This document shows, piece by piece, positions 13,930 to 21,610 of a DNA stretch of 64,000 nucleotides (position 1 is the first letter of the stretch; every line of letters begins with the position of its first letter). Source of the DNA: Candidatus Poriferisodalaceae bacterium (GTDB taxonomy: Bacteria > Actinomycetota > Acidimicrobiia > Acidimicrobiales > Poriferisodalaceae); NCBI GenBank assembly GCA_965205925.1, contig OZ242183.1:1148641-1212640 (forward strand), read 5' to 3'. Under the pieces are notes generated by a model, which did no database searches, was not told the origin of the DNA, and worked only from the letters and a program-made list of their open reading frames with translations. A program made the translations under genes and the position numbers.

Positions 13930-14562
13930 CTAGCGCAGTTCGACTCGGCCGTTTGGGCACTCAAACACTGCGGAGATCTCGTCCGGTCCTTCATCTACGT
14001 CTATCGAAAGCCCGATCGCCGAATGCATCTGTCGCACAGTCGCCGGGTCAGCTGTCGAACCATTTAGCGTGATCAGCGTTGCCCCAGTGGGTGTGACCTT
14101 GGACGGGTGAGTAGTGGCGCCCCAGTCGATCACGAACGGCTCTAAGCAAGTGTTAGCCGCAGCGTTGCGAGATAGCCGCCAGTGAATCTGCTCACCGTCG
14201 GGTTTGACCCTGCTCATGGCAGAAATCGGACCTGGATCGAAACCATGTGAAGCCATTGCTGTTGTGACCTCGTCAATGGTTTGCGGTGGTGTGGCGTGGA
14301 TGCAAAAGCTAGCTAGGCGACCTTCTCCGGCCGCTAGATCGTCGACGCCAAATGGGCGTGGCACGTCGGGATCTGGTTGGTTTGGGTCGGGTGCGATTAT
14401 CTCTAGATAGACGTTTTCGCCAAGCGACAGCAGCGCGTTGTAGGTACCTACACCTGGATGCGGCCCGCCCGGAGTTGCTTTTACGCCGGTGAGATCTTCA
14501 ATGTGAGAGACGCCAGTAGCGAGATCGGTACAAGCAAAAACTAGATGATCAATATCAGCCAT
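13930..14562 (-). CDS. VOC/glyoxalase-like domain protein
   Basis: IDHLVFACTDL...GGPHPGVGTYNALLSLGENVYLEIIAPDP resembles the glyoxalase-like fold. Confidence 0.6.
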   Translation of the reverse strand: MADIDHLVFACTDLATGVSHIEDLTGVKATPGGPHPGVGTYNALLSLGENVYLEIIAPDPNQPDPDVPRPFGVDDLAAGEGRLASFCIHATPPQTIDEVTTAMASHGFDPGPISAMSRVKPDGEQIHWRLSRNAAANTCLEPFVIDWGATTHPSKVTPTGATLITLNGSTADPATVRQMHSAIGLSIDVDEGPDEISAVFECPNGRVELR

Positions 14563-14628: not shown

Positions 14629-17600
14629 TTAGTAGTTTTCCCTGATGTAGGCGTAAGCACGGTCGAACAACTCTCCAGTTACTGGAAGTTCGTATTTCTT
14701 TAGCAACAGGCGTACTTCGCGTCTTACTCCTTGATCGCCAGGAGTAGATGATTGCCAGCCTGTTCCGCGTGAAGGATCCACGATCGCATCAACATCCATA
14801 ACAATCCGTTCCAAGATTTCCGGCCGTTTATCTGGCGCGTACTCCAAGAAGATTTGTGTGAGAGCTCCTTGTCGAGGGTTAAGCACTTTGAATTCATCTA
14901 AGCGTCCCTCATCATCAGCACGCTCCGCTCGCACGACTTCACTAGCAACTTCCATCAGGTGTTTTAGAAAATCCACAGATGCCTCGGCATCGGCGATTTT
15001 TTTGGCTCGCAAGGCTTCCAGCCGCTCAGACAAAGTGCGCCACACACGATGCGGGTCTGTGCCTTCTGTGCGGCGACGAATACGTTCTTCTAGTCGGTCC
15101 AACACTTCCACTGCAGATGGAGGCGGTTTTTGGATGTCGGTTTCGGGAATGAGTGTTAGATCATGCTCTCGCAGGAAATCCAGAGTTTCAGCGTCAAGAG
15201 CAATCTGATCCAAAGCGGTGCCGTCAATAGTTACGCCAGTGAGGTTCTCGTGAACTAGCGCCATGGTTTTGGCCCCTAGGCGGTGCCATAGCAGCATGTT
15301 CCCAACATTTGACGGAGCGATCGATGCGTAGACCTTTGCAAGAAAGTTGTAGCGACTCTCATGCTCATTGAAACGCTCGTCGGGTGAAAGGAACTCGTAG
15401 AGGCCCTGACACTGCATGAATTCTTTAGCGAACTGTTGCCTGCTCTCGTCTCCTTTAAGGATCTCCTGAGCGTTGGATATCCGAGCAAAAGTGGGTTGTG
15501 TGCGGTCGATCTTCTCGAACCGTTCCCAAGCGATATTGGTTGCATCTATAAGTTCGGTCAGTAGTACTTGTATGTCGCCTTCGTTTCTCTTTGGGAGAGC
15601 GGTGTGCTTGACTGCAACCGCACGGGCGAGATCCTCACCCATACCGACGTAGTCGACAACAAGCCCGAACTGCTTCTCTTGCCCAGTGCGCTGGTTTGTC
15701 CAACGCCGGTTAGTACGACAAACCGCTTGAAAGAGCGTGTGCGCTCTCAGAGGCTTATCTAGATACATCACACCCTCAATTGGTGCGTCAAAACCAGTGA
15801 GCAGCTTGGCAGTCACGATGAGGAATTTCAACGGGTCATCTAGATCGCGGAAACGATTCTTGACGGCGGCTTCTTGATCTCGGTCAAGATCCCAACCGCT
15901 CCATTCCTGAGGATCACCTTTGTCAGTGGTCATGACTACTGTGGCTAGCTCGCCAGGCTTAAGAAGTTCTTTCAGTTCCTCGTAGTAGGCAACGCAGGTT
16001 GCGCGGTCGTACGCAACGATTTGAGCTTTCAGCCCTAGCGGAGCGATGCGTTCTCGATAGTGCGTGACGATGTCTTGGCACACGGCCCGTACTCGCTTCG
16101 GGTTCTGCACTACTACAGACTGATGCCCAGCCTTGCGGCTGATGAACTCTTTTTCCTCATCGTCTAGATCTTCTTCTTCGGCGAGGCTGTCGAATGCTTG
16201 CTGAAGCACATCACCGTCAAAGTGAAAATTGACCAAACGGGTCTCAACGTGCACTGGCAATGTGGCTCCGTCGTAGATCGATCGCTCAACTGAGTAGTGA
16301 TTTAGTGCACCATCAGGATCATCGGGGTCGCCAAACATTGCCCACGTGTTGCGATCTTCTGATGAAATTGGTGTGCCTGTGAGCCCAATGAACTTGGCGT
16401 TTGGCACCGCAGCGCGCATGTTCTGTCCGAGCCGACCTTCTTGTGTGCGATGGGCTTCATCCACCATCACCACGATGTTGTCGCGCTCGTTGAGCAGCCC
16501 AGCATCTTTGAAGCGGTAAATCGTGGTGATAATCACCCCGCGTGAATCTTCCGACAACAATCGCCGCAAATCTTCTCTTGTTTGCGCCACCCTCATAGTG
16601 GGGATGCCTACCGACTCAAACTCTGAAGCGGTTTGTTCAATCAAGTCCAATCGATCCAGTACCACAACGATCGTGGGAGCGTCTAGCTCCGTGTAGTGCC
16701 GTAGTTTCGCTGCTGCATATGCCATTGCAAACGTTTTGCCCGAACCTTGGTGGTGCCAGACCAAGCCCTGCTGTTTGTTTGGATCAAGGCAGCGTTTCAC
16801 GATGGCATCCACCGCCTCCACCTGGGGATAGCGCGGAATAATTTTCTGCCTTACGGCTCCCTGCGATGTGGGTCGAGACGAGTAGAGCGTGTAGTGCCGC
16901 AAAATATCCAACACCATTTCAGGGGTTAGCAGCAGCTCGGTGGAGCGCATCACAGCCGGGATACCTTCCGGCAGCATGCTGTCCGTGGTCTTGGACCAGT
17001 TCAGCCACATCTCAGGTGGCTGTCGTACTGCCCCATAGCGAAAATCACGACCATCGGTCGCAAACGACAACACGTTCGGCACAAAGAAGGCAGGGGTCTT
17101 CATCTCATAGCCGTTGTGGATGTCCGTTGCTGCATTCAGCCACGAATTGTTTGTCATCGGTGCTTTGGTCTCTCCAACCACCAACGGAATGCCATTTACC
17201 CACAGCACAATGTCGTAACGGCGATGCTCTCTACCAGCATGGAAAGTTGCCTCAGCGCTTACACGCAAGATGTTTGCACGAGGGTTATCGAAATCGATCA
17301 GTTGAACCTGAGAGTGCTGATCCATCCCTATGTATTTGCAGGCACGGCGGCCGCATAGCCACGCCACGAATTCTTCATTGGCAGCCAAAAGCCCATCGTT
17401 TGGTGCTGACAGCAATACTGCAAGCAGCTTTGGAAGAACCTCTCCTGCGCGTGACGGTTCTTCAGCGATTTCGGGGTTCAGTTGAACCATTGCTGCTTGC
17501 AACTCATCGAAGCGGACTACTTCGTCGTACCGGCGACCAAGTTCCTCGTCGTCCAGTGCTAAATCCCAGCCAAGTTCCGCAAGTTTTTCGCACAGTCCGT

Positions 17601-17631
17601 TTTGGACGGTGCGTTCCACAAGATCGGTCAT
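14629..17631 (-). CDS. hsdR: Type I restriction enzyme, R subunit (HsdR)
   Basis: 1000 aa. N-terminal nuclease region (DIVLWVNGIPLVVGETK), SF2 helicase motifs (HHQGSGKTF, VMVDEAHRTQ, GLTGTP, QAVCRTNR). Its ATG overlaps the hsdS stop (ATGA). Confidence 0.92.
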   Translation of the reverse strand: MTDLVERTVQNGLCEKLAELGWDLALDDEELGRRYDEVVRFDELQAAMVQLNPEIAEEPSRAGEVLPKLLAVLLSAPNDGLLAANEEFVAWLCGRRACKYIGMDQHSQVQLIDFDNPRANILRVSAEATFHAGREHRRYDIVLWVNGIPLVVGETKAPMTNNSWLNAATDIHNGYEMKTPAFFVPNVLSFATDGRDFRYGAVRQPPEMWLNWSKTTDSMLPEGIPAVMRSTELLLTPEMVLDILRHYTLYSSRPTSQGAVRQKIIPRYPQVEAVDAIVKRCLDPNKQQGLVWHHQGSGKTFAMAYAAAKLRHYTELDAPTIVVVLDRLDLIEQTASEFESVGIPTMRVAQTREDLRRLLSEDSRGVIITTIYRFKDAGLLNERDNIVVMVDEAHRTQEGRLGQNMRAAVPNAKFIGLTGTPISSEDRNTWAMFGDPDDPDGALNHYSVERSIYDGATLPVHVETRLVNFHFDGDVLQQAFDSLAEEEDLDDEEKEFISRKAGHQSVVVQNPKRVRAVCQDIVTHYRERIAPLGLKAQIVAYDRATCVAYYEELKELLKPGELATVVMTTDKGDPQEWSGWDLDRDQEAAVKNRFRDLDDPLKFLIVTAKLLTGFDAPIEGVMYLDKPLRAHTLFQAVCRTNRRWTNQRTGQEKQFGLVVDYVGMGEDLARAVAVKHTALPKRNEGDIQVLLTELIDATNIAWERFEKIDRTQPTFARISNAQEILKGDESRQQFAKEFMQCQGLYEFLSPDERFNEHESRYNFLAKVYASIAPSNVGNMLLWHRLGAKTMALVHENLTGVTIDGTALDQIALDAETLDFLREHDLTLIPETDIQKPPPSAVEVLDRLEERIRRRTEGTDPHRVWRTLSERLEALRAKKIADAEASVDFLKHLMEVASEVVRAERADDEGRLDEFKVLNPRQGALTQIFLEYAPDKRPEILERIVMDVDAIVDPSRGTGWQSSTPGDQGVRREVRLLLKKYELPVTGELFDRAYAYIRENY

Positions 17632-18203
17632 ACGGCTTCCAGCAAGGCGTCGTATGAGTCGGGTATTTCGTGTTCGCCTGACAGCAGGTTGATGAGCACA
17701 CCATCTCGCAATGAGCGTGTGTGAACGATCGCCTTTTCGGTTGCTTGCAGCATCTGATCCGCCCCGCTGATGATTTCAATGATCCGCTGCTGTTCTTCAA
17801 GTGGCGGGAGATTCATCTGTATGGCTGCGACGTTTTTTCGAGAGATTTCACGGAAAGTATTGCCAGTGGATCGAATTATGAATTCGCGAGTGTTTGCCTG
17901 ACACCAATACATAGCGAATCGCGGCAGAAGATCTGACCCACATATCAACGATGTGAAGCCTTGATTGGTTGCTAAGGGCACGCCTGACAGCGCAACTGCT
18001 CCAATCGTGGCGCGTGAGGTAAGAAGCACGGTGTCAACCGGCAACATCTTTGCCGATGAGTTGGCAAGACCTTCTCTAGTGATTTTTCGAGCAGAGTCGT
18101 TGATGTAGTCGCCTTGGTTAGCGACAACTTCGGCTGGTGTTATCCAAATGATGTCGCCATTCCAGTACTCAGGAGTCTTTGTTGATGGAGTTCCGCCTAA
18201 CAC
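17628..18203 (-). CDS. hsdS: HsdS fragment 3: TRD3 plus C-terminal conserved coiled-coil region (half-size S subunit as sequenced)
   Basis: GGTPSTKTPEYWNGDIIWITPAEV and TNQGF are typical TRD motifs. The C-terminal LPPLEEQQRIIEII... is the conserved helix. In-frame sequence continues upstream (EKEWRQVALGDVVEI) to the G9 tract. Confidence 0.8.
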   Translation of the reverse strand: MLGGTPSTKTPEYWNGDIIWITPAEVVANQGDYINDSARKITREGLANSSAKMLPVDTVLLTSRATIGAVALSGVPLATNQGFTSLICGSDLLPRFAMYWCQANTREFIIRSTGNTFREISRKNVAAIQMNLPPLEEQQRIIEIISGADQMLQATEKAIVHTRSLRDGVLINLLSGEHEIPDSYDALLEAV

Positions 18204-18258: not shown

Positions 18259-18267
18259 GGGGGGGGG
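18259..18267. repeat. G9 homopolymer (C9 on the coding strand) at the CR2|TRD3 junction of hsdS
   Basis: Counted directly. It encodes ..LTPP(P).. and one extra base would fuse CR2 to TRD3. Confidence 0.95.
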
Positions 18268-18972
18268 TCAGTAGTTCTGTGAGGAGCGCTTCACGAGAGA
18301 TTTCGGCTTTGATGGCAGATTGGCCTTGTGCCTCGATGTAGGCGTCGACCGAATCAAGGAGTTCCACGATGCGTCTCTGCTCCTTGAGAGGGGTATTAGG
18401 ACTTCAGTTTCCAAGTAATTGCCCAGATCCAGATTGCGAATATTGGTGCCACGCTGGTGTTCAAATGCCTTCCCTTGACGATGTAACGACCAAAGCTCAT
18501 AGAAAAGAAATTTCGGTACCACTTCGTCTCTGTCTGCCCTGAGCAGGGTCAAGAAGTTTGAGAACGAAGAAGGCTCTTGGCCAATTTCACTCACATACAC
18601 GACCCGCCCCGGCAATGTTGGAGTGCCAGCACTCTTTTGAATCAGGATGTCTCCTTCTTCAAGTGTGCGGCTTGCTAACTGTTTCTTAGTCAGAGAACGA
18701 GTTGCCCCAGCAGGCTTAATCAAGACACCATCGTTTGTGAACTCAGTCTGTCTGAATACTTGAACATCGATCTCGCTTTCCCCGAAGTTCTTGCCCCATA
18801 CACCACCTAGTTTCTTTGAAAGCAAAGCTGAGAGCGTTACCTGACGCCATTCTTTACGCATGTCAGGCGGTCTTAGGAGCTCGACGAGCAACGCTTGGCG
18901 GGCTGTCTGGCCAGTTGTGAGTTGCTGTTCGAGAGCGTCGAGGTAGGTGTCGATTGATTCGATGAGATCCAC
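18268..18972 (-). CDS. hsdS: HsdS fragment 2: CR1 plus TRD2, frameshifted before CR2
   Basis: DLIESIDTYLDALEQQL...RKEWRQVTLSALLSKKLGGVWG...NIRNLDLGNYLETEVLIP, then an out-of-frame tail. CR2 (LKEQRRIVELLDSVDAYIEAQGQ...) is readable in the next frame. Confidence 0.8.
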   Translation of the reverse strand: MDLIESIDTYLDALEQQLTTGQTARQALLVELLRPPDMRKEWRQVTLSALLSKKLGGVWGKNFGESEIDVQVFRQTEFTNDGVLIKPAGATRSLTKKQLASRTLEEGDILIQKSAGTPTLPGRVVYVSEIGQEPSSFSNFLTLLRADRDEVVPKFLFYELWSLHRQGKAFEHQRGTNIRNLDLGNYLETEVLIPLSRSRDASWNSLIRSTPTSRHKANLPSKPKSLVKRSSQNY

Positions 18973-19412
18973 GATCCGGCGTTGCTCCTGGGGGGGGGTA
19001 TTAGGATTGGGAATTCAACCAAACGTTTCTTGGTTATGTGCTTCATGGTTGTTCCATGCGCTTGTTTCTCTAAGTCTTTGATGGCATTTTGTAATACCCA
19101 AGCAAGCCACCCAATTTGGACTTTTTTCGAGGGAATGACCTTAAAAAGGTGCTGATTTAGAAGAGCGGGACCACGATCCCAGAAGCGCACAGCCAATGTG
19201 GCAGACCAAGAGAAGACTAGGTCGCCGTCATCAATCTGAAATCGATCTGGGATCTCTACTTCAGATCGGTCAGGGATTTCTTGAGGATTCAATAGCTGTT
19301 TGATTCGGATGACAGGTTTCCCGGTTGTTCCAAGTTCAGATGGCTTAAAGGGGTAGCCGTTGTTGAATACCGCGATATCGCCAAGTTTTGATTCACGCCA
19401 GCCGTCATTCAT
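18873..19412 (-). CDS. hsdS: HsdS fragment 1: TRD1, frameshifted at a G9 tract
   Basis: MNDGWRESKLGDIAVFNNGYPFKPSE...LVEFPILIPPP, then an out-of-frame tail of about 38 aa. ATG 19412 overlaps the hsdM stop (ATGAATGA). Confidence 0.8.
   Translation of the reverse strand: MNDGWRESKLGDIAVFNNGYPFKPSELGTTGKPVIRIKQLLNPQEIPDRSEVEIPDRFQIDDGDLVFSWSATLAVRFWDRGPALLNQHLFKVIPSKKVQIGWLAWVLQNAIKDLEKQAHGTTMKHITKKRLVEFPILIPPPRSNAGSWISSNQSTPTSTLSNSNSQLARQPAKRCSSSS
18990..18998. repeat. G9 homopolymer at the TRD1|CR1 junction of hsdS
   Basis: Counted directly. With one extra base the reading is ..FPILIPPPQEQRRIVDLIESIDTYL.. Confidence 0.95.
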
Positions 19413-20918
19413 AGCCAGCGGCCTTGAGTCGCTTGTCCATCGCCAACTGAGCTTCTGCAAGCTGTTTCTGGGCTTGGCGTAGGTCGGTAAGAGCTTCGCC
19501 TACGTCGATGATTTCATCGGCGTCTTGTTGTATGTAGCGACCGATGTTGAGATCCCAGCCGTTGGTTTCTATTTCGCTGATATCTACGGTCGATTGCTTG
19601 ATCCCGTCTGCCTCTACATCGGGATCTAGGTATGCCTCAAGTAGCGCTGCCACGTCGCCATCGCCAAGTGTGTTCTGGCTGCGGCCGGACTCGTATCGCT
19701 GAGAGCCGTCGATGATGCGAACTTTGCCCTTAGATGCCTTGTCTTTACTATTTCGCAAGATCAGCAGGCACGCAGGGATAGAAGTGCCGTAGAAAAGATT
19801 TGGCCCAAGACCGATGAGGGCTTCAAGCAAATCTGTCTCAAGAATGTACTGTCGTATACGTCCCTCAGCACCTGATCGAAACAGGGCGCCGTGAGGCATT
19901 ACGACCCCGACCTTGCCGGTGTTGGGTTTAGCAGAAGCGAGCATGTGCTGAATCCAGGCGAAGTCAGCGTTGTTTTTTGGTGGAACGCCTCCTAGTTCGG
20001 AACGGTTGTGTGGGTCATCTGCCCAGACTTCTCGCCCCCACTCTTTAAGTGAAAACGGTGGGTTGGCGATGACTACGTCAAACTGGCTGAGCTTTCCTTT
20101 GTTGTCGACAAAGAGTGGGTTGCGAAGCGTGTCACCTCTGCGAATGGTTGTGTCTTCCACATCTTGGATGTAGAGGTTCATTCGACCTATTGCCGATGAG
20201 GTTTGGTTTACCTCTTGGCCAAAGAATCGCATCCGAGCGGTGGATCTGCCCGAAGTCTTGATTTCTTTGGCGACTTCGATCAGCATGCCCGCAGAGCCGC
20301 ATGCCGGGTCATAGACCGTGTCGGTTTCAGTGGCTGCAAGAATCTTGACTAGGAGGTGTACGACTCCTCGAGGGGTGAAAAACTGCCCAGCGTTGGCAGC
20401 GTTTTCGTCTGAGAACTGCTTGAGCAAGTACTCGTACCCATCACCCAACATGTCGTGGGGCACTTGGCTAGGCGAGATGTTGTAACGGTTGAAGTGATCA
20501 ACCAGCCGTTGGAGACGTTCAGGCGGCATTCGATTTGAATCAGCCCAGGAGGCGTTGCCAAAGATCCCCGCGAGTCGATCTGGGTTGGCTTGTTCAATCT
20601 TTTGCGTTATCGCTTGGATTGCTACACCGTGGTTTTCAGTGACACGGCGTAAATCCTCCCAATGGCACCCATCCGGGATGGCGAACTTGTGAAAATCGGA
20701 TTTGGCAATCTCTTGAGTGAGTTCGTCACCCCACTCAGCTTCTGCTTCAGCCTGCTTTTCATCCCAAGTGTCCGACAGCAGTTTTAGGAAGAGAATCGGG
20801 AAAATGAAATCCCGCAGGTTGACTGGATCTACCGGACCTCGGAGGATGTCGGCGGCTCCCCAGAGCCAAGATTCAAGCTCTTGCTGAGATAGTGCTGGGG
20901 GAGGGGGGGGGTCGTCAT
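19405..20918 (-). CDS. hsdM: Type I R-M N6-adenine DNA methyltransferase (HsdM), start codon out of frame in this sequence
   Basis: Motif I DPACGSAGML, motif IV NPPF, and FFTPR. The conserved HsdM N-domain (LSQQELESWLWGAADILRGPVDPVNLRDFIFPILFLKLLSD...) is in frame with the 19405-20529 ORF. It has no ATG/GTG/TTG upstream of 20529. The only plausible ATG (20918-20916) is displaced by one base across the G9 tract. Confidence 0.85.
20903..20911. repeat. G9 homopolymer (in the context GGGGG-A-GGGGGGGGG) four nt downstream of the hsdM ATG
   Basis: Counted directly. G10 would give MTTPPPPPALSQQELESW... Confidence 0.95.
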
Positions 20919-20960
20919 CCGCCGGTCATCATTTGACCTAGTGACGGCGCGTTAGTTGAG

Positions 20961-21033
20961 TGGAGCTAAGGGGAATCGAACCCCTGACCTCTTCCATGCC
21001 ATGGAAGCGCTCTACCAACTGAGCTATAGCCCC
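20961..21033 (-). tRNA. tRNA-Ala (anticodon GGC)
   Basis: Minus strand reads GGGGCUAUAGCUCAGUUGGUAGAGCGCUUCCAUGGCAUGGAAGAGGUCAGGGGUUCGAUUCCCCUUAGCUCCA. It folds as a cloverleaf with a G3:U70 pair, anticodon loop AUGGCAU and a GGUUCGAUUCC T-arm. CCA is not encoded. Confidence 0.9.
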
Positions 21034-21045
21034 GCACTTGTGCAT

Positions 21046-21083
21046 GAGCGCAGAAGCCTACTAAGAGCGCAGTGGTCTACTAA
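21046..21083. repeat. Imperfect 19-nt tandem direct repeat just 5' of tRNA-Ala
   Basis: GAGCGCAGAAGCCTACTAA / GAGCGCAGTGGTCTACTAA, 15 of 19 identical. Confidence 0.7.
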
Positions 21084-21126
21084 TCCTGATGTGCTGGCAC
21101 CTGATACACAGCAAAGTGATGGTTGT

Positions 21127-21558
21127 CTAAGAAATCCGCACTCGCACGTAGGTGCGGTCGTCGAAGCTGATGTTGTCAGGAGATGCGACTTTTGTCCCTG
21201 GTGGATGCTCAAGCCGAAGGGGGTCGCGTTCTATCGCTGCAGCGAGCAGCTTTTCACTTTCTTCAAGAGTGCTTTGCGGCGTGGTGTAGCCGTCGGAGGC
21301 CAGCACAAGTTCGCTTGCTTGAGCGAAGTCGAAGACATCCACTATTTCTTTGGGAGTGCTCGTTCCATCGAAGACAGCGAAACCCAACTCGTGTTTACAG
21401 AGATTGTTGAAGCGTTTGGCTTCTTGCAATAGCGGCAAGATCAGTGCCCATCGGCGAGCAGCAGAGCGTTTGCGCCACAAGAATCCCATCAGCGTCAGGA
21501 ATCCAGTACCCGCTAGCCCGACCACCACTCCTAGGAGGTTATTGAGAACATTTAGCAC
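21127..21558 (-). CDS. Hypothetical membrane-anchored protein
   Basis: One N-terminal TM segment (LLGVVVGLAGTGFLTLMGFLW) followed by a soluble domain of about 100 aa with no motif I can assign. Confidence 0.45.
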   Translation of the reverse strand: MLNVLNNLLGVVVGLAGTGFLTLMGFLWRKRSAARRWALILPLLQEAKRFNNLCKHELGFAVFDGTSTPKEIVDVFDFAQASELVLASDGYTTPQSTLEESEKLLAAAIERDPLRLEHPPGTKVASPDNISFDDRTYVRVRIS

Positions 21559-21610
21559 AGGGCGATACTATTTCTTGACCGCGTAACAACCCTGATGATT
21601 TTTTGAACCA

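What the first reader, a model, noticed from the sequence alone, without database searches (positions are those of the whole stretch)
20896..20932. hsdM start codon is uncoupled from its ORF by a G9 tract four nt into the gene (a classic ON/OFF position)
About 130 codons of typical HsdM N-domain (LSQQELESWLWGAADILRGPVDPVNLRDFIFPILFLKLLSDTWDEK...) are in frame with the methyltransferase core. They contain no ATG, GTG or TTG, which the ORF track confirms because its ORF only starts at 20529.

The frame closes upstream at a TGA. The only nearby ATG (20918-20916) reads ATG ACG A-C9-T-C5... and is one base out of frame. C10 (or C7) would give MTTPPPPPALSQQELESW.... With C9 the ATG frame terminates about 30 codons downstream.

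A five-codon mini-ORF (ATGATGACCGGCGGATGA, MMTGG) ends in an ATGA overlap with this ATG. Without HsdM neither modification nor restriction can assemble, so in this sequence state the whole system is predicted to be OFF. A homopolymer at the extreme 5' end of a methyltransferase gene is the standard layout of phase-variable R-M genes (phasevarions) in Neisseria, Haemophilus and Helicobacter. It would be unusual in an actinobacterium.
Basis: partly seen in the sequence, partly recalled or inferred. Interest (0 to 1): 0.7.

Follow-up and report, generated by a model that had tools for sequence, protein, structure and literature searches.

The report
Repeat-switched restriction system in sponge symbiont
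A DNA-defence (type I restriction-modification) operon in an uncultured sponge-associated actinobacterium carries three slippery runs of nine C's at gene and domain junctions, a known kind of random genetic switch, and in this genome they all sit in the "off" frame.

Summary
On the coding (-) strand, ATG 20918-20916 is followed by ACGA, C9 (20911-20903), T and C5. The HsdM N-domain lies in another frame with no start codon until 20529, and C10 or C7 would fuse them.

The window's only three G/C runs of 7 or more are all C9 and all lie in this operon: the hsdM 5' end, the hsdS TRD1/CR1 junction (18990-18998) and the CR2/TRD3 junction (18259-18267) of a three-TRD hsdS array.

Four orthologous loci beside the same tRNA-Ala, in related Candidatus Poriferisodalaceae-like genomes, carry repeats at the same sites. 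Lengths are 9-16, with (AG)15 once, and both in-frame and out-of-frame states occur. About 140 more distant relatives have none.

This is therefore a conserved, repeat-driven phase-variable type I R-M system of the kind catalogued by Atack et al. 2019: hsdM ON/OFF plus truncated, full and "extended" HsdS. Here it is captured OFF. hsdS also has a frameshift at a decayed 9-nt tract, so the silencing may not be simply reversible.

The main caveat is that these look like HiFi metagenome assemblies and no reads were available, so a one-base undercall of the tract cannot be excluded.

I file it as a new member of a known kind, of moderate interest.

The parts
20960..21033 (-). tRNA-Ala(GGC), 41 nt upstream of the hsdM ATG. 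It is the conserved left border of the R-M island in all five clade loci.
   Evidence: ARAGORN; synteny
20915..20932 (-). Five-codon mini-ORF (MMTGG) that overlaps the hsdM ATG as ATGA. It is not conserved in relatives and is probably chance.
20916..20918 (-). The only start codon upstream of hsdM. [quoted passage not shown]
20903..20911 (-). hsdM 5' poly-C tract (C9, followed by T and C5). C10, C7 or C13 would put the ATG in frame.
   Evidence: orthologous tracts
20829..20918 (-). 29-codon out-of-frame peptide made from the ATG in the C9 state. It ends at TAG 20831-20829.
19405..20925 (-). hsdM reading frame. It is open from 20925 (HsdM_N then N6_Mtase), but the first start-type codon is ATG 20529, and the public gene call is that 374-aa truncation (P0002).
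18873..19412 (-). hsdS part 1: ATG 19412 (which overlaps the hsdM stop as ATGAATGA), then TRD1, then a 38-aa out-of-frame tail after tract A.
18990..18998 (-). Tract A: C9 at the TRD1/CR1 junction (I-P-P-P / EQRRIV). C10 would be in frame. The geometry is the same in four related loci.
18859..18861 (-). In-frame ATG (MRKEWRQV) at the start of TRD2. Its upstream context copies that of the true hsdS start, so it is a candidate internal initiation site.
   Evidence: in L001 the gene caller starts the 409-aa HsdS at the equivalent ATG
18268..18972 (-). ORF holding most of CR1, then TRD2, then a 43-aa out-of-frame tail.
18385..18393 (-). Decayed tract CCCCTCTCA at the TRD2/CR2 junction. It has the same 9-nt length as tract A in the OFF state, and it puts CR2 out of frame (C5 instead of C4 would restore it).
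   Evidence: ungapped 72-nt repeat D1
18259..18267 (-). Tract B: C9 at the CR2/TRD3 junction. With C9 the CR2 frame stops 10 codons later. C10 would fuse TRD3-CR3 onto it ("extended" HsdS).
17628..18203 (-). TRD3-CR3. It has no start codon of its own apart from an internal GTG. Its stop overlaps the hsdR start.
14629..17631 (-). hsdR, intact at 1000 aa (HSDR_N, SWI2_SNF2, ResIII, T1R_D3-like).

Best explanation
The G9/C9 run is one of three hypermutable simple-sequence repeats built into a type I restriction-modification operon (tRNA-Ala, hsdM, three-TRD hsdS, hsdR). The host is a Candidatus Poriferisodalaceae-like bacterium (Acidimicrobiales, Actinomycetota).

Proposed mechanism:
- Slipped-strand mispairing during replication changes each tract by one base or so.
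- At hsdM this couples or uncouples the only start codon from the methyltransferase frame (ON at C10, C7 or C13; OFF otherwise).
- At hsdS, tract A decides whether TRD1 is joined to CR1-TRD2.
- Tract B decides whether the protein ends after CR2 or runs on into TRD3-CR3.
- An internal ATG, in a copy of the native initiation context, could start a TRD2-first protein when tract A is off.
- The population could therefore switch the system off, or switch its DNA specificity.

State of this sequence: hsdM is OFF, tract A is OFF, tract B is unfused, and a decayed fourth tract keeps CR2 out of frame. No methylase or restriction complex is predicted. Silence here is deeper than a single reversible slip.

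Shown directly: the tracts, the frames, the domain content, and the conservation and length differences among orthologous loci. Inferred: the slippage rate, reversibility, loss of activity, changes of specificity, and use of the internal start.
For: 1. All three G/C runs of 7 or more in 64 kb are C9 and lie within 2.7 kb of this operon. The expected count is 0.16. CCC is the rarest Pro codon.
2. The tracts sit exactly at the hsdM 5' end and at TRD/CR junctions, the positions reported for repeat-bearing hsd genes (PMC7383803).
3. Orthologous loci beside the same tRNA-Ala, with conserved flanking synteny, keep repeats at the same sites with different lengths and frames.
   - hsdM: C9 (window, off), C10 (L001, on), C10 (L067, off because the pre-tract is 2 nt longer), C10 (L002, on), C16 (L148).
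   - Tract A, identical geometry: C9 off (window, L001), C10 on (L067, L002), C15 off (L148).
   - Tract B: C9 (window), C10 and C11 fused (L001, L067), and (AG)15.5 at the same junction in L148.
   - Sources.
4. L001 and L067 come from one sample and one pipeline, are about 96% identical in their flanks, and differ in tract A (C9 versus C10).
5. Independent cases exist elsewhere. A 68%-GC genome whose HsdM is nested among tract-less proteins outside the clade has ATG-TTC-ACC-G9 at the same hsdM site (L003). An Illumina-assembled Acidimicrobiales MAG has an out-of-frame C12 inside hsdM (L005).
6. The 80 metagenome relatives at 61-73% HsdM identity (495 kb) have no G/C run of 7 or more. The GTDB relatives at 56% identity or less have none of 9 or more.
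7. The rest of the window is tiled by intact ORFs. The frameshifts are confined to this operon.
8. The hsdM frame is free of stops and still scores as HsdM_N plus N6_Mtase, and hsdR is intact. The locus is therefore not old debris.
Against: - No reads were available, so length heterogeneity within a population is not shown.
- The nearest relatives belong to other species (flanks about 82% identical or less), so the length differences are between lineages, not within a clone.
- Relatives' contig names and a genome note on such sponge MAGs point to PacBio HiFi plus metaMDBG, sometimes from PCR-amplified low-input libraries. This is not established for the window itself. Most out-of-frame states are exactly one base short of in-frame, which is what an undercall would look like.
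- The window's hsdS also has a frameshift at a short C4 run, which fits decay as well as switching.
- No Shine-Dalgarno sequence or promoter was recognised for the ATG.
- L148 has no canonical start codon and only 7x coverage.
Confidence: 0.65

Rival explanations
1. Assembly artefact. The true tract is C10 and the hsdS tracts are likewise one base longer, undercalled by long-read consensus or by PCR stutter in low-input libraries. hsdM would then be intact in this genome. The tracts would still be potential switches, but the OFF call would be wrong.
For: - Relatives' contig names (ctgN_190x_l and similar) fit metaMDBG HiFi assemblies. A genome note for a sponge carrying Poriferisodalaceae MAGs describes HiFi, ultra-low-input libraries and metaMDBG.
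- All three window tracts, and the C4 site, need exactly +1.
- OFF states in L067, L001 and L003 are also one base short of in-frame.
Against: - The same sample and pipeline gave C9 and C10 at tract A in L001 and L067, and C10 and C11 elsewhere, so there is no cap at 9.
- L148 tract A is off by +1 or -2, not -1.
- L005 is an Illumina (k141) assembly with an out-of-frame C12.
- About 55 other genes in the window are unbroken, and they include A7 and T7 runs.
- A C5-to-C4 undercall would be unusual for HiFi consensus.
Confidence: 0.2
2. Pseudogenisation. The operon is decaying in this genome. The homopolymers are simply the first places to break, with no selected reversible switching.
For: - There are four frameshifts in 2.7 kb. 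One is at a non-hypermutable C4 within a substituted former tract.
- L148 lacks a canonical hsdM start and has a fragmented hsdS.
Against: - Tracts persist at the same three junctions through roughly 18-30% flank divergence, with different repeat types at one junction. This is not expected without selection.
- There are no stop codons or other lesions in the 1.5-kb hsdM frame, the TRDs or the 3-kb hsdR.
- In-frame states exist in relatives.
Confidence: 0.12
3. Programmed recoding. A -1 ribosomal frameshift on the C CCC CCC run, or transcriptional slippage on C9, yields HsdM constitutively at a low level without any DNA change.
For: - The run is a formal X XXY YYZ slippery heptamer.
- The needed shift is -1, by direct reading of the sequence.
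Against: - The two closest in-frame relatives (L001, L002) need no recoding, so an out-of-frame layout is not conserved.
- No downstream stimulatory structure was sought or seen.
- It would not explain the tracts in hsdS.
Confidence: 0.03

Closest known systems
Repeat-bearing, potentially phase-variable type I hsdM genes (H. influenzae CGAGA[n], M. haemolytica ACAGC[n]); survey by Atack et al. 2019 (PMC7383803)
   Same: The repeat lies in the 5' part of the hsdM coding sequence, and ON/OFF is predicted through the reading frame. The run of 9 meets the survey's mononucleotide criterion.
   Different: - This is a homopolymer four bases after the start codon, not a pentanucleotide repeat.
- The host is an uncultured sponge-associated Acidimicrobiales bacterium, not a host-adapted pathogen.
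- The same operon also carries hsdS repeats. In M. haemolytica the hsdM and hsdS repeats are in different systems.
N. gonorrhoeae NgoAV hsdS poly-G tract (full-length versus truncated HsdS with altered specificity), as summarised in PMC7383803
   Same: A homopolymer between TRD1 and the rest of hsdS, where a frame change truncates the protein. Tract A is in the same position.
   Different: Here the tract lies before the central conserved region, so the truncated product lacks CR1 and probably cannot dimerise. A downstream in-frame ATG may instead start a TRD2-first protein.
"Extended" three-TRD phase-variable hsdS of Mannheimia haemolytica (G[n]) and Fusobacterium nucleatum (AAGAC[n]) (PMC7383803 section 3.4)
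   Same: Three TRDs in series with a repeat between TRD 2a and 2b. Repeat length decides between a two-TRD and a three-TRD protein. A single three-TRD ORF is seen in a relative (L067, 587 aa).
   Different: A second tract after TRD1 and an hsdM tract are combined with it. The TRD cassettes shift position between close relatives. Specificities are unknown.
Homopolymer-tract phase variation in Mycobacterium tuberculosis (glpK and others; PMC10334774)
   Same: Reversible frameshifts at short C/G homopolymers in an actinobacterial genome.
   Different: Those genes are metabolic or virulence genes, not R-M genes, and the tracts are shorter. This is a precedent for the mechanism in the phylum only.

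Membership tests
Type I restriction-modification system | HsdM with an HsdM_N domain and an N6-adenine methylase domain | tested here: met
   on the C10-repaired protein, HsdM_N E 5.9e-22 and N6_Mtase E 2e-91.
Type I restriction-modification system | HsdS with Methylase_S target-recognition domains separated by conserved helices | tested here: met
   three Methylase_S stretches (E 1.6e-60 overall). The conserved EQRRIV...LL helices are read directly.
Type I restriction-modification system | HsdR with HSDR_N nuclease and SF2 motor domains, in one operon with hsdM and hsdS | tested here: met
   (HSDR_N, SWI2_SNF2, ResIII, T1R_D3-like). The hsdM/hsdS and hsdS/hsdR junctions overlap.
Repeat-mediated phase-variable type I R-M (Atack et al. 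2019 criteria) | A simple repeat of at least 9 mononucleotides inside the gene | tested here: met
   Three C9 tracts. The criterion is quoted.
Repeat-mediated phase-variable type I R-M (Atack et al. 2019 criteria) | Repeat in the 5' region of hsdM, or between TRDs in hsdS | tested here: met
   compared.
Repeat-mediated phase-variable type I R-M (Atack et al. 2019 criteria) | Tract length differs among strains or within a population, giving both in-frame and out-of-frame alleles | tested here: inconclusive
   Lengths of 9-16 and both frame states are seen among five orthologous loci, including two roughly 96%-identical populations in one sample. No same-species genomes and no reads were available.
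Repeat-mediated phase-variable type I R-M (Atack et al. 2019 criteria) | Expression or methylation switches with tract length | not testable with these tools
   Needs reporter fusions or methylome data.
"Extended" three-TRD phase-variable hsdS | Three TRDs in series with a repeat between the second and third | tested here: met
   Tract B lies at the CR2/TRD3 junction. L067 has one 587-aa three-TRD ORF.
"Extended" three-TRD phase-variable hsdS | Two-TRD and three-TRD products have different methylation specificities | not testable with these tools
   No methylome data.
Phasevarion (epigenetic regulon) | Methylase switching changes expression of multiple genes | not testable with these tools
   Needs transcriptomics of ON and OFF variants. 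hsdR is intact, so a defence role is equally likely.
Programmed ribosomal frameshift gene | Out-of-frame arrangement conserved in orthologues | tested here: not met
   L001 and L002 hsdM are in frame across the tract.

The most novel reading that the evidence does not exclude
The three repeats form one combinatorial switch that is conserved in a family of sponge symbionts.
- hsdM gates the whole system.
- Tracts A and B, together with an internal start codon that copies the native initiation site, select among TRD1+TRD2, TRD2+TRD3, a TRD2 half-subunit, and a three-TRD protein.
- This gives up to four specificities plus OFF from a single operon.
- TRD cassettes slide along the array between close relatives.
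- Selection acts on hypermutability as such: poly-C or (AG)n occurs at the same junction, and a G-tract was gained independently in a genome whose HsdM lies outside this clade.
Probability: 0.3. Interest if true: 0.65.

Novelty: new member of a known kind. Interest (0 to 1): 0.5.

Why it matters
Phase-variable methyltransferases have been studied almost entirely in host-adapted pathogens. This locus would place the same strategy in an uncultured, sponge-associated actinobacterial lineage, with the repeat sites conserved across several related lineages (flanking DNA down to about 67% identical). It would also combine, in one operon, all three repeat layouts that were previously described separately.

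If the switching is real, it gives a concrete handle on how symbionts in virus-rich sponge tissue diversify defence or methylation within a population. It is directly testable, because HiFi reads give both tract lengths and, where polymerase kinetics were kept, m6A motifs.

There is a practical point too. Gene callers report a 374-aa "HsdM" and three HsdS fragments here, so such loci are easily mis-annotated as broken.

Tried and rejected
- **Exact-sequence look-ups.** Searching for contigs that encode the window's HsdR and its truncated HsdM returned nothing. Same-strain or same-species tract comparison was therefore impossible.
- **Metagenome pattern scan.** A scan for C9 followed within 20 nt by the QQELESWLW codons found nothing in the metagenome contig collection.
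- **Start-codon depletion.** I tested whether the 132-codon start-less stretch reflects selection for a tight OFF state. It is the longest such run in the window (the next is 105; naive expectation about 0.05 per window). However, the HsdM N-domain is poor in start-type codons in all relatives (mean 4 per 118 codons, range from 1), so this was dropped.
- **Promoter and terminator scan** of 20800-21600 found nothing on the - strand. The transcription start is unresolved, and co-transcription with tRNA-Ala is possible.
- **Mini-ORF coupling idea.** The MMTGG mini-ORF is absent from relatives.
- **Poly-proline linker selected at protein level.** Rejected. The other PP and PPP junctions in these same genes use mixed codons, and CCC is the rarest Pro codon.
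- **Not used.** Structure prediction and fold search, because they do not bear on the question.
Full report
**1. The observation.**

On the - strand the sequence reads ...GGTCAAATGATGACCGGCGG ATG ACG A CCCCCCCCC T CCCCC AGC ACT ATC TCA GCA AGA GCT TGA.... The C9 run is at 20911-20903 (G9 on the + strand) and the ATG is at 20918-20916.
- From that ATG the frame gives 29 codons and stops at TAG 20831-20829.
- The frame that encodes LSQQELESWLWGAADILRGPVDP... opens after two TGA codons (20931-20926). It holds no ATG, GTG or TTG until ATG 20529, so the ORF listing reports only 19405..20529 (374 aa).
- Adding one C gives a 504-aa protein. Pfam HsdM_N covers residues 15-143 (E 5.9e-22) and N6_Mtase covers 155-467 (E 2e-91).
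- The public protein collection holds exactly the 374-aa truncation from a 1,795,226-bp contig (P0002).

**2. It is one of three tracts.**

The window (54% G+C) has no G run longer than 5 and no C run longer than 6, apart from three G9 runs: 20903-20911, 18990-18998 and 18259-18267. Dinucleotide shuffles give 0.16 such runs per window. CCC is the least used proline codon (18%), and the three other PPP runs in the window's genes use mixed codons.

All three tracts lie in one operon on the - strand. hsdM is followed by an hsdS region with three Methylase_S domains, then an intact 1000-aa hsdR (14629-17631). The gene junctions overlap (ATGAATGA at hsdM/hsdS, a 4-nt overlap at hsdS/hsdR).
- Tract A (18990-18998) lies between TRD1 and the first conserved helix (…EFPILIPPP / QEQRRIVDLIES…).
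- Tract B (18259-18267) lies between the second conserved helix and TRD3 (…LLTELLTPP / PEQAEKEWRQVALGD…).
- Each tract needs one more C to join the flanking frames.
- With C9 at tract B, the CR2 frame simply stops 10 codons later, as a normal two-TRD HsdS would.

There is a fourth frameshift at the TRD2/CR2 junction (ATA CCCC TCTCA AGGAG, 18385-18393). A 72-nt ungapped repeat (78% identity) aligns this junction with tract A. The 9-nt CCCCTCTCA therefore corresponds base for base to C9. It looks like a former tract that accumulated three substitutions while at the out-of-frame length. CR2 cannot be reached in any state of tracts A and B.

The other roughly 55 ORFs tile the window without breaks.

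**3. Relatives.**

The closest full-length HsdM proteins start with proline runs: P0001 (76% identity, MAAPPPSLSQQ…) and P0011 (70%, MSADITPPPPQLTQQ…). P0021 (68%) starts MSV-G10-…. I fetched their contigs and two more found through a truncated HsdM (P0020) and through HsdR (P0133).

This gave four loci that share the window's layout: rpsT, holA, comEC, comEA, MFS, thioredoxin, a luciferase-like gene, tRNA-Ala(GGC), then hsdMSR. One of them is OZ252012.1, titled "MAG: Candidatus Poriferisodalaceae bacterium". That family belongs to Acidimicrobiales, Actinomycetota, a known sponge-symbiont group. Flanking DNA is about 82% identical between the window and L001. L001 and L067 come from one sample and are about 96% identical in their flanks.

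| Locus | hsdM 5' tract | Tract A (TRD1/CR1) | Tract B (CR2/TRD3) |
|---|---|---|---|
| Window | ATGACGA + C9, off | C9, off | C9, unfused |
| L001 | ATGGCTG + C10, on (501 aa) | C9, off | C10, fused; 409-450-aa TRD2+TRD3 ORF |
| L067 | ATGGCAATA + C10, off (would need C11 or C8) | C10, on | C11, fused; single 587-aa three-TRD ORF |
| L002 | GTG…ATCA + C10, on (505 aa) | C10, on (382-aa HsdS) | no tract; TRD3 is a separate 194-aa gene with its own ATG |
| L148 (7x coverage) | C16, no canonical start codon | C15, off | (AG)15.5 at the same junction |

Sources. Tract A has identical geometry in four of the loci (Ile or Leu codon, Cn, 2 nt, GAGCAR/GAACAA), so 9 versus 10 is a straightforward length difference at an orthologous site.

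In an NJ tree the window, P0001, P0020 and P0011 form one clade. P0021 (L003, 68% G+C, 3.2 Mb) is nested among tract-less proteins, yet it has ATG TTC ACC G9 immediately before SQQELESW, plus a G30 run upstream. That is an independent gain at the same site. An Illumina-assembled Acidimicrobiales MAG (L005) has an out-of-frame C12 in the 3' part of hsdM.

More distant relatives lack such runs. The 80 metagenome loci with 61-73% identical HsdM (495 kb) have no G/C run of 7 or more. The GTDB relatives at 56% identity or less have none of 9 or more.

**4. What the hsdS array looks like.**

TRD cassettes are mosaic and change position between loci.
- L001 TRD2+TRD3 corresponds to L067 TRD1+TRD2 (77% identity over 394 aa).
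- L001 TRD1 is homologous to the window's TRD2.
- The window's TRD3 is homologous to L001 TRD3.

At the CR1/TRD2 junction all four loci examined have an in-frame ATG (PPDMRKEW and similar). Its upstream DNA (CTCCTAAGRCCGCCTGAC-ATG-CGT…TGGCGT) closely copies the real hsdS initiation region (CTCAAGGCCGCYGGNT-ATG-…TGGCGT). In L001, where tract A is off, the gene caller starts a normal-sized 409-aa HsdS at that ATG. TRD3 has no such ATG except in L002, so elsewhere it is reachable only through tract B.

**5. Mechanism.**

The best reading is repeat-mediated phase variation, and I commit to it.
- Slipped-strand mispairing alters tract length.
- hsdM toggles ON and OFF.
- The two hsdS tracts change which TRDs are joined: TRD1+2, TRD2+3 through the internal start, a three-TRD "extended" form, or a TRD2 half-subunit.

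The tracts, frames, domains and cross-locus variation are shown. Slippage rates, reversibility, activity, use of the internal start, and specificities are inferred.

In this window hsdM is off, tract A is off, and CR2 is locked out of frame by the decayed tract. No functional methylase or endonuclease complex is predicted. Because type I restriction needs HsdM and HsdS, this state is safe for the cell. Early termination at 20829 may also reduce translation of the coupled hsdS (inference).

**6. Rivals.**

*(a) One-base undercall.* The relatives' contig names fit metaMDBG HiFi assemblies. A genome note on a sponge with Poriferisodalaceae MAGs describes HiFi, sometimes from PCR-amplified low-input libraries. 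Most off states are exactly one base short of in-frame.

Against this, one sample and pipeline gave C9, C10 and C11. L148 tract A is off by +1 or -2. L005 is an Illumina assembly. No other gene in the window is broken. I put this at about 0.2. Even if it is true, the tracts remain switch candidates.

*(b) Plain decay (about 0.12).* This is favoured by the C4 lesion and by L148. It is disfavoured by conservation of the repeat sites, the replacement of poly-C by (AG)n at one junction, and the otherwise clean hsdM, TRDs and hsdR.

*(c) Programmed -1 frameshifting or transcriptional slippage (about 0.03).* The out-of-frame layout is not conserved in L001 and L002.

**7. Comparison with what is known.**

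Atack et al. 2019 (PMC7383803) surveyed REBASE.
- They found repeats in 2% of hsdM genes (mostly in the 5' region, predicted ON/OFF) and in 7.9% of hsdS genes (always between TRDs).
- They report truncated versus full-length HsdS (NgoAV), and "extended" three-TRD HsdS in M. haemolytica (G[n]) and F. nucleatum (AAGAC[n]). For M. haemolytica the two-TRD and three-TRD forms have different solved specificities.
- Their threshold is at least 9 for mononucleotide runs.

Every element here has a described counterpart, so this is a member of a known kind. Three things are new:
- the host, an uncultured sponge-associated Acidimicrobiales lineage; I found no paper linking sponge symbionts with phase-variable R-M;
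- the three layouts occurring together in one operon, whereas in M. haemolytica the hsdM and hsdS repeats belong to different systems;
- conservation of the repeat sites across five lineages, with cassette shuffling.

Homopolymer phase variation is not unknown in Actinomycetota. It is documented in the M. tuberculosis complex (PMC10334774).

**8. Verdict.**

I file it as a new member of a known kind, with interest about 0.5. Read-level tract lengths and HiFi-kinetics methylomes would settle it.

Noticed in passing
L003 8009-8038 and 8083-8091: A 68%-GC, 3.2-Mb genome has a G30 run about 45 nt upstream of an ATG-TTC-ACC-G9 motif at the hsdM 5' end. The public gene call starts at a GTG before the G30 run and reads through both runs (MSV-G10-...). 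The G30 run may lie in the promoter or leader rather than in the coding sequence.
   Followed up: partly
L005 8294-8305 and 14955-14963: An Illumina-assembled Acidimicrobiales MAG has an out-of-frame C12 in the variable linker near the 3' end of hsdM. It also has an intergenic C9 about 22 nt upstream of an ATG of an unrelated gene.
   Followed up: partly
L148 4316-4346: An (AG)15.5 dinucleotide repeat occupies the CR2/TRD3 junction, where the window, L001 and L067 have poly-C. This locus also has much longer C16 and C15 tracts and no canonical hsdM start codon. Coverage is only 7x.
   Followed up: partly
L001 9499-11348 versus L067 8373-10136: Two populations from one sample, about 96% identical in flanking genes, carry hsdS arrays shifted by one cassette (L001 TRD2+TRD3 matches L067 TRD1+TRD2 at 77% aa identity). 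Their hsdM genes are only 88.6% identical in DNA. The R-M operon therefore diverges much faster than its surroundings.
   Followed up: partly
window 13930-14562; L001 14522-17338; L002 14616-17518; L148 8022-11499: Cargo beyond hsdR differs between loci. There is a Glyoxalase_3 gene in the window and L148, two AAA_14/DUF4143 genes in L001 and L067, a DNA_methylase plus an MZB helicase-type gene in L002, and a 918-aa HsdM_N/N6_Mtase/SLFN_AlbA_2 fusion in L148. The tRNA-Ala site looks like a variable defence island.
   Followed up: no
window 20530-20925: The 132-codon stretch without ATG, GTG or TTG is the longest in the window (the next is 105). However, HsdM N-domains are generally poor in such codons, so this is probably not a special feature.
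   Followed up: yes
window 20919-20959: Only 41 nt separate the tRNA-Ala 3' end from the hsdM ATG, and no promoter-like or terminator-like site was found on the - strand. hsdM may be transcribed together with the tRNA. The spacer is 52, 85 and 295 nt in L001, L067 and L002.
   Followed up: partly
L001 14746-14752 and L067 13533-13539: A C7 run sits at the same position in the AAA_14/DUF4143 gene of both loci. It is the only other C/G run of 7 or more near these operons.
   Followed up: no
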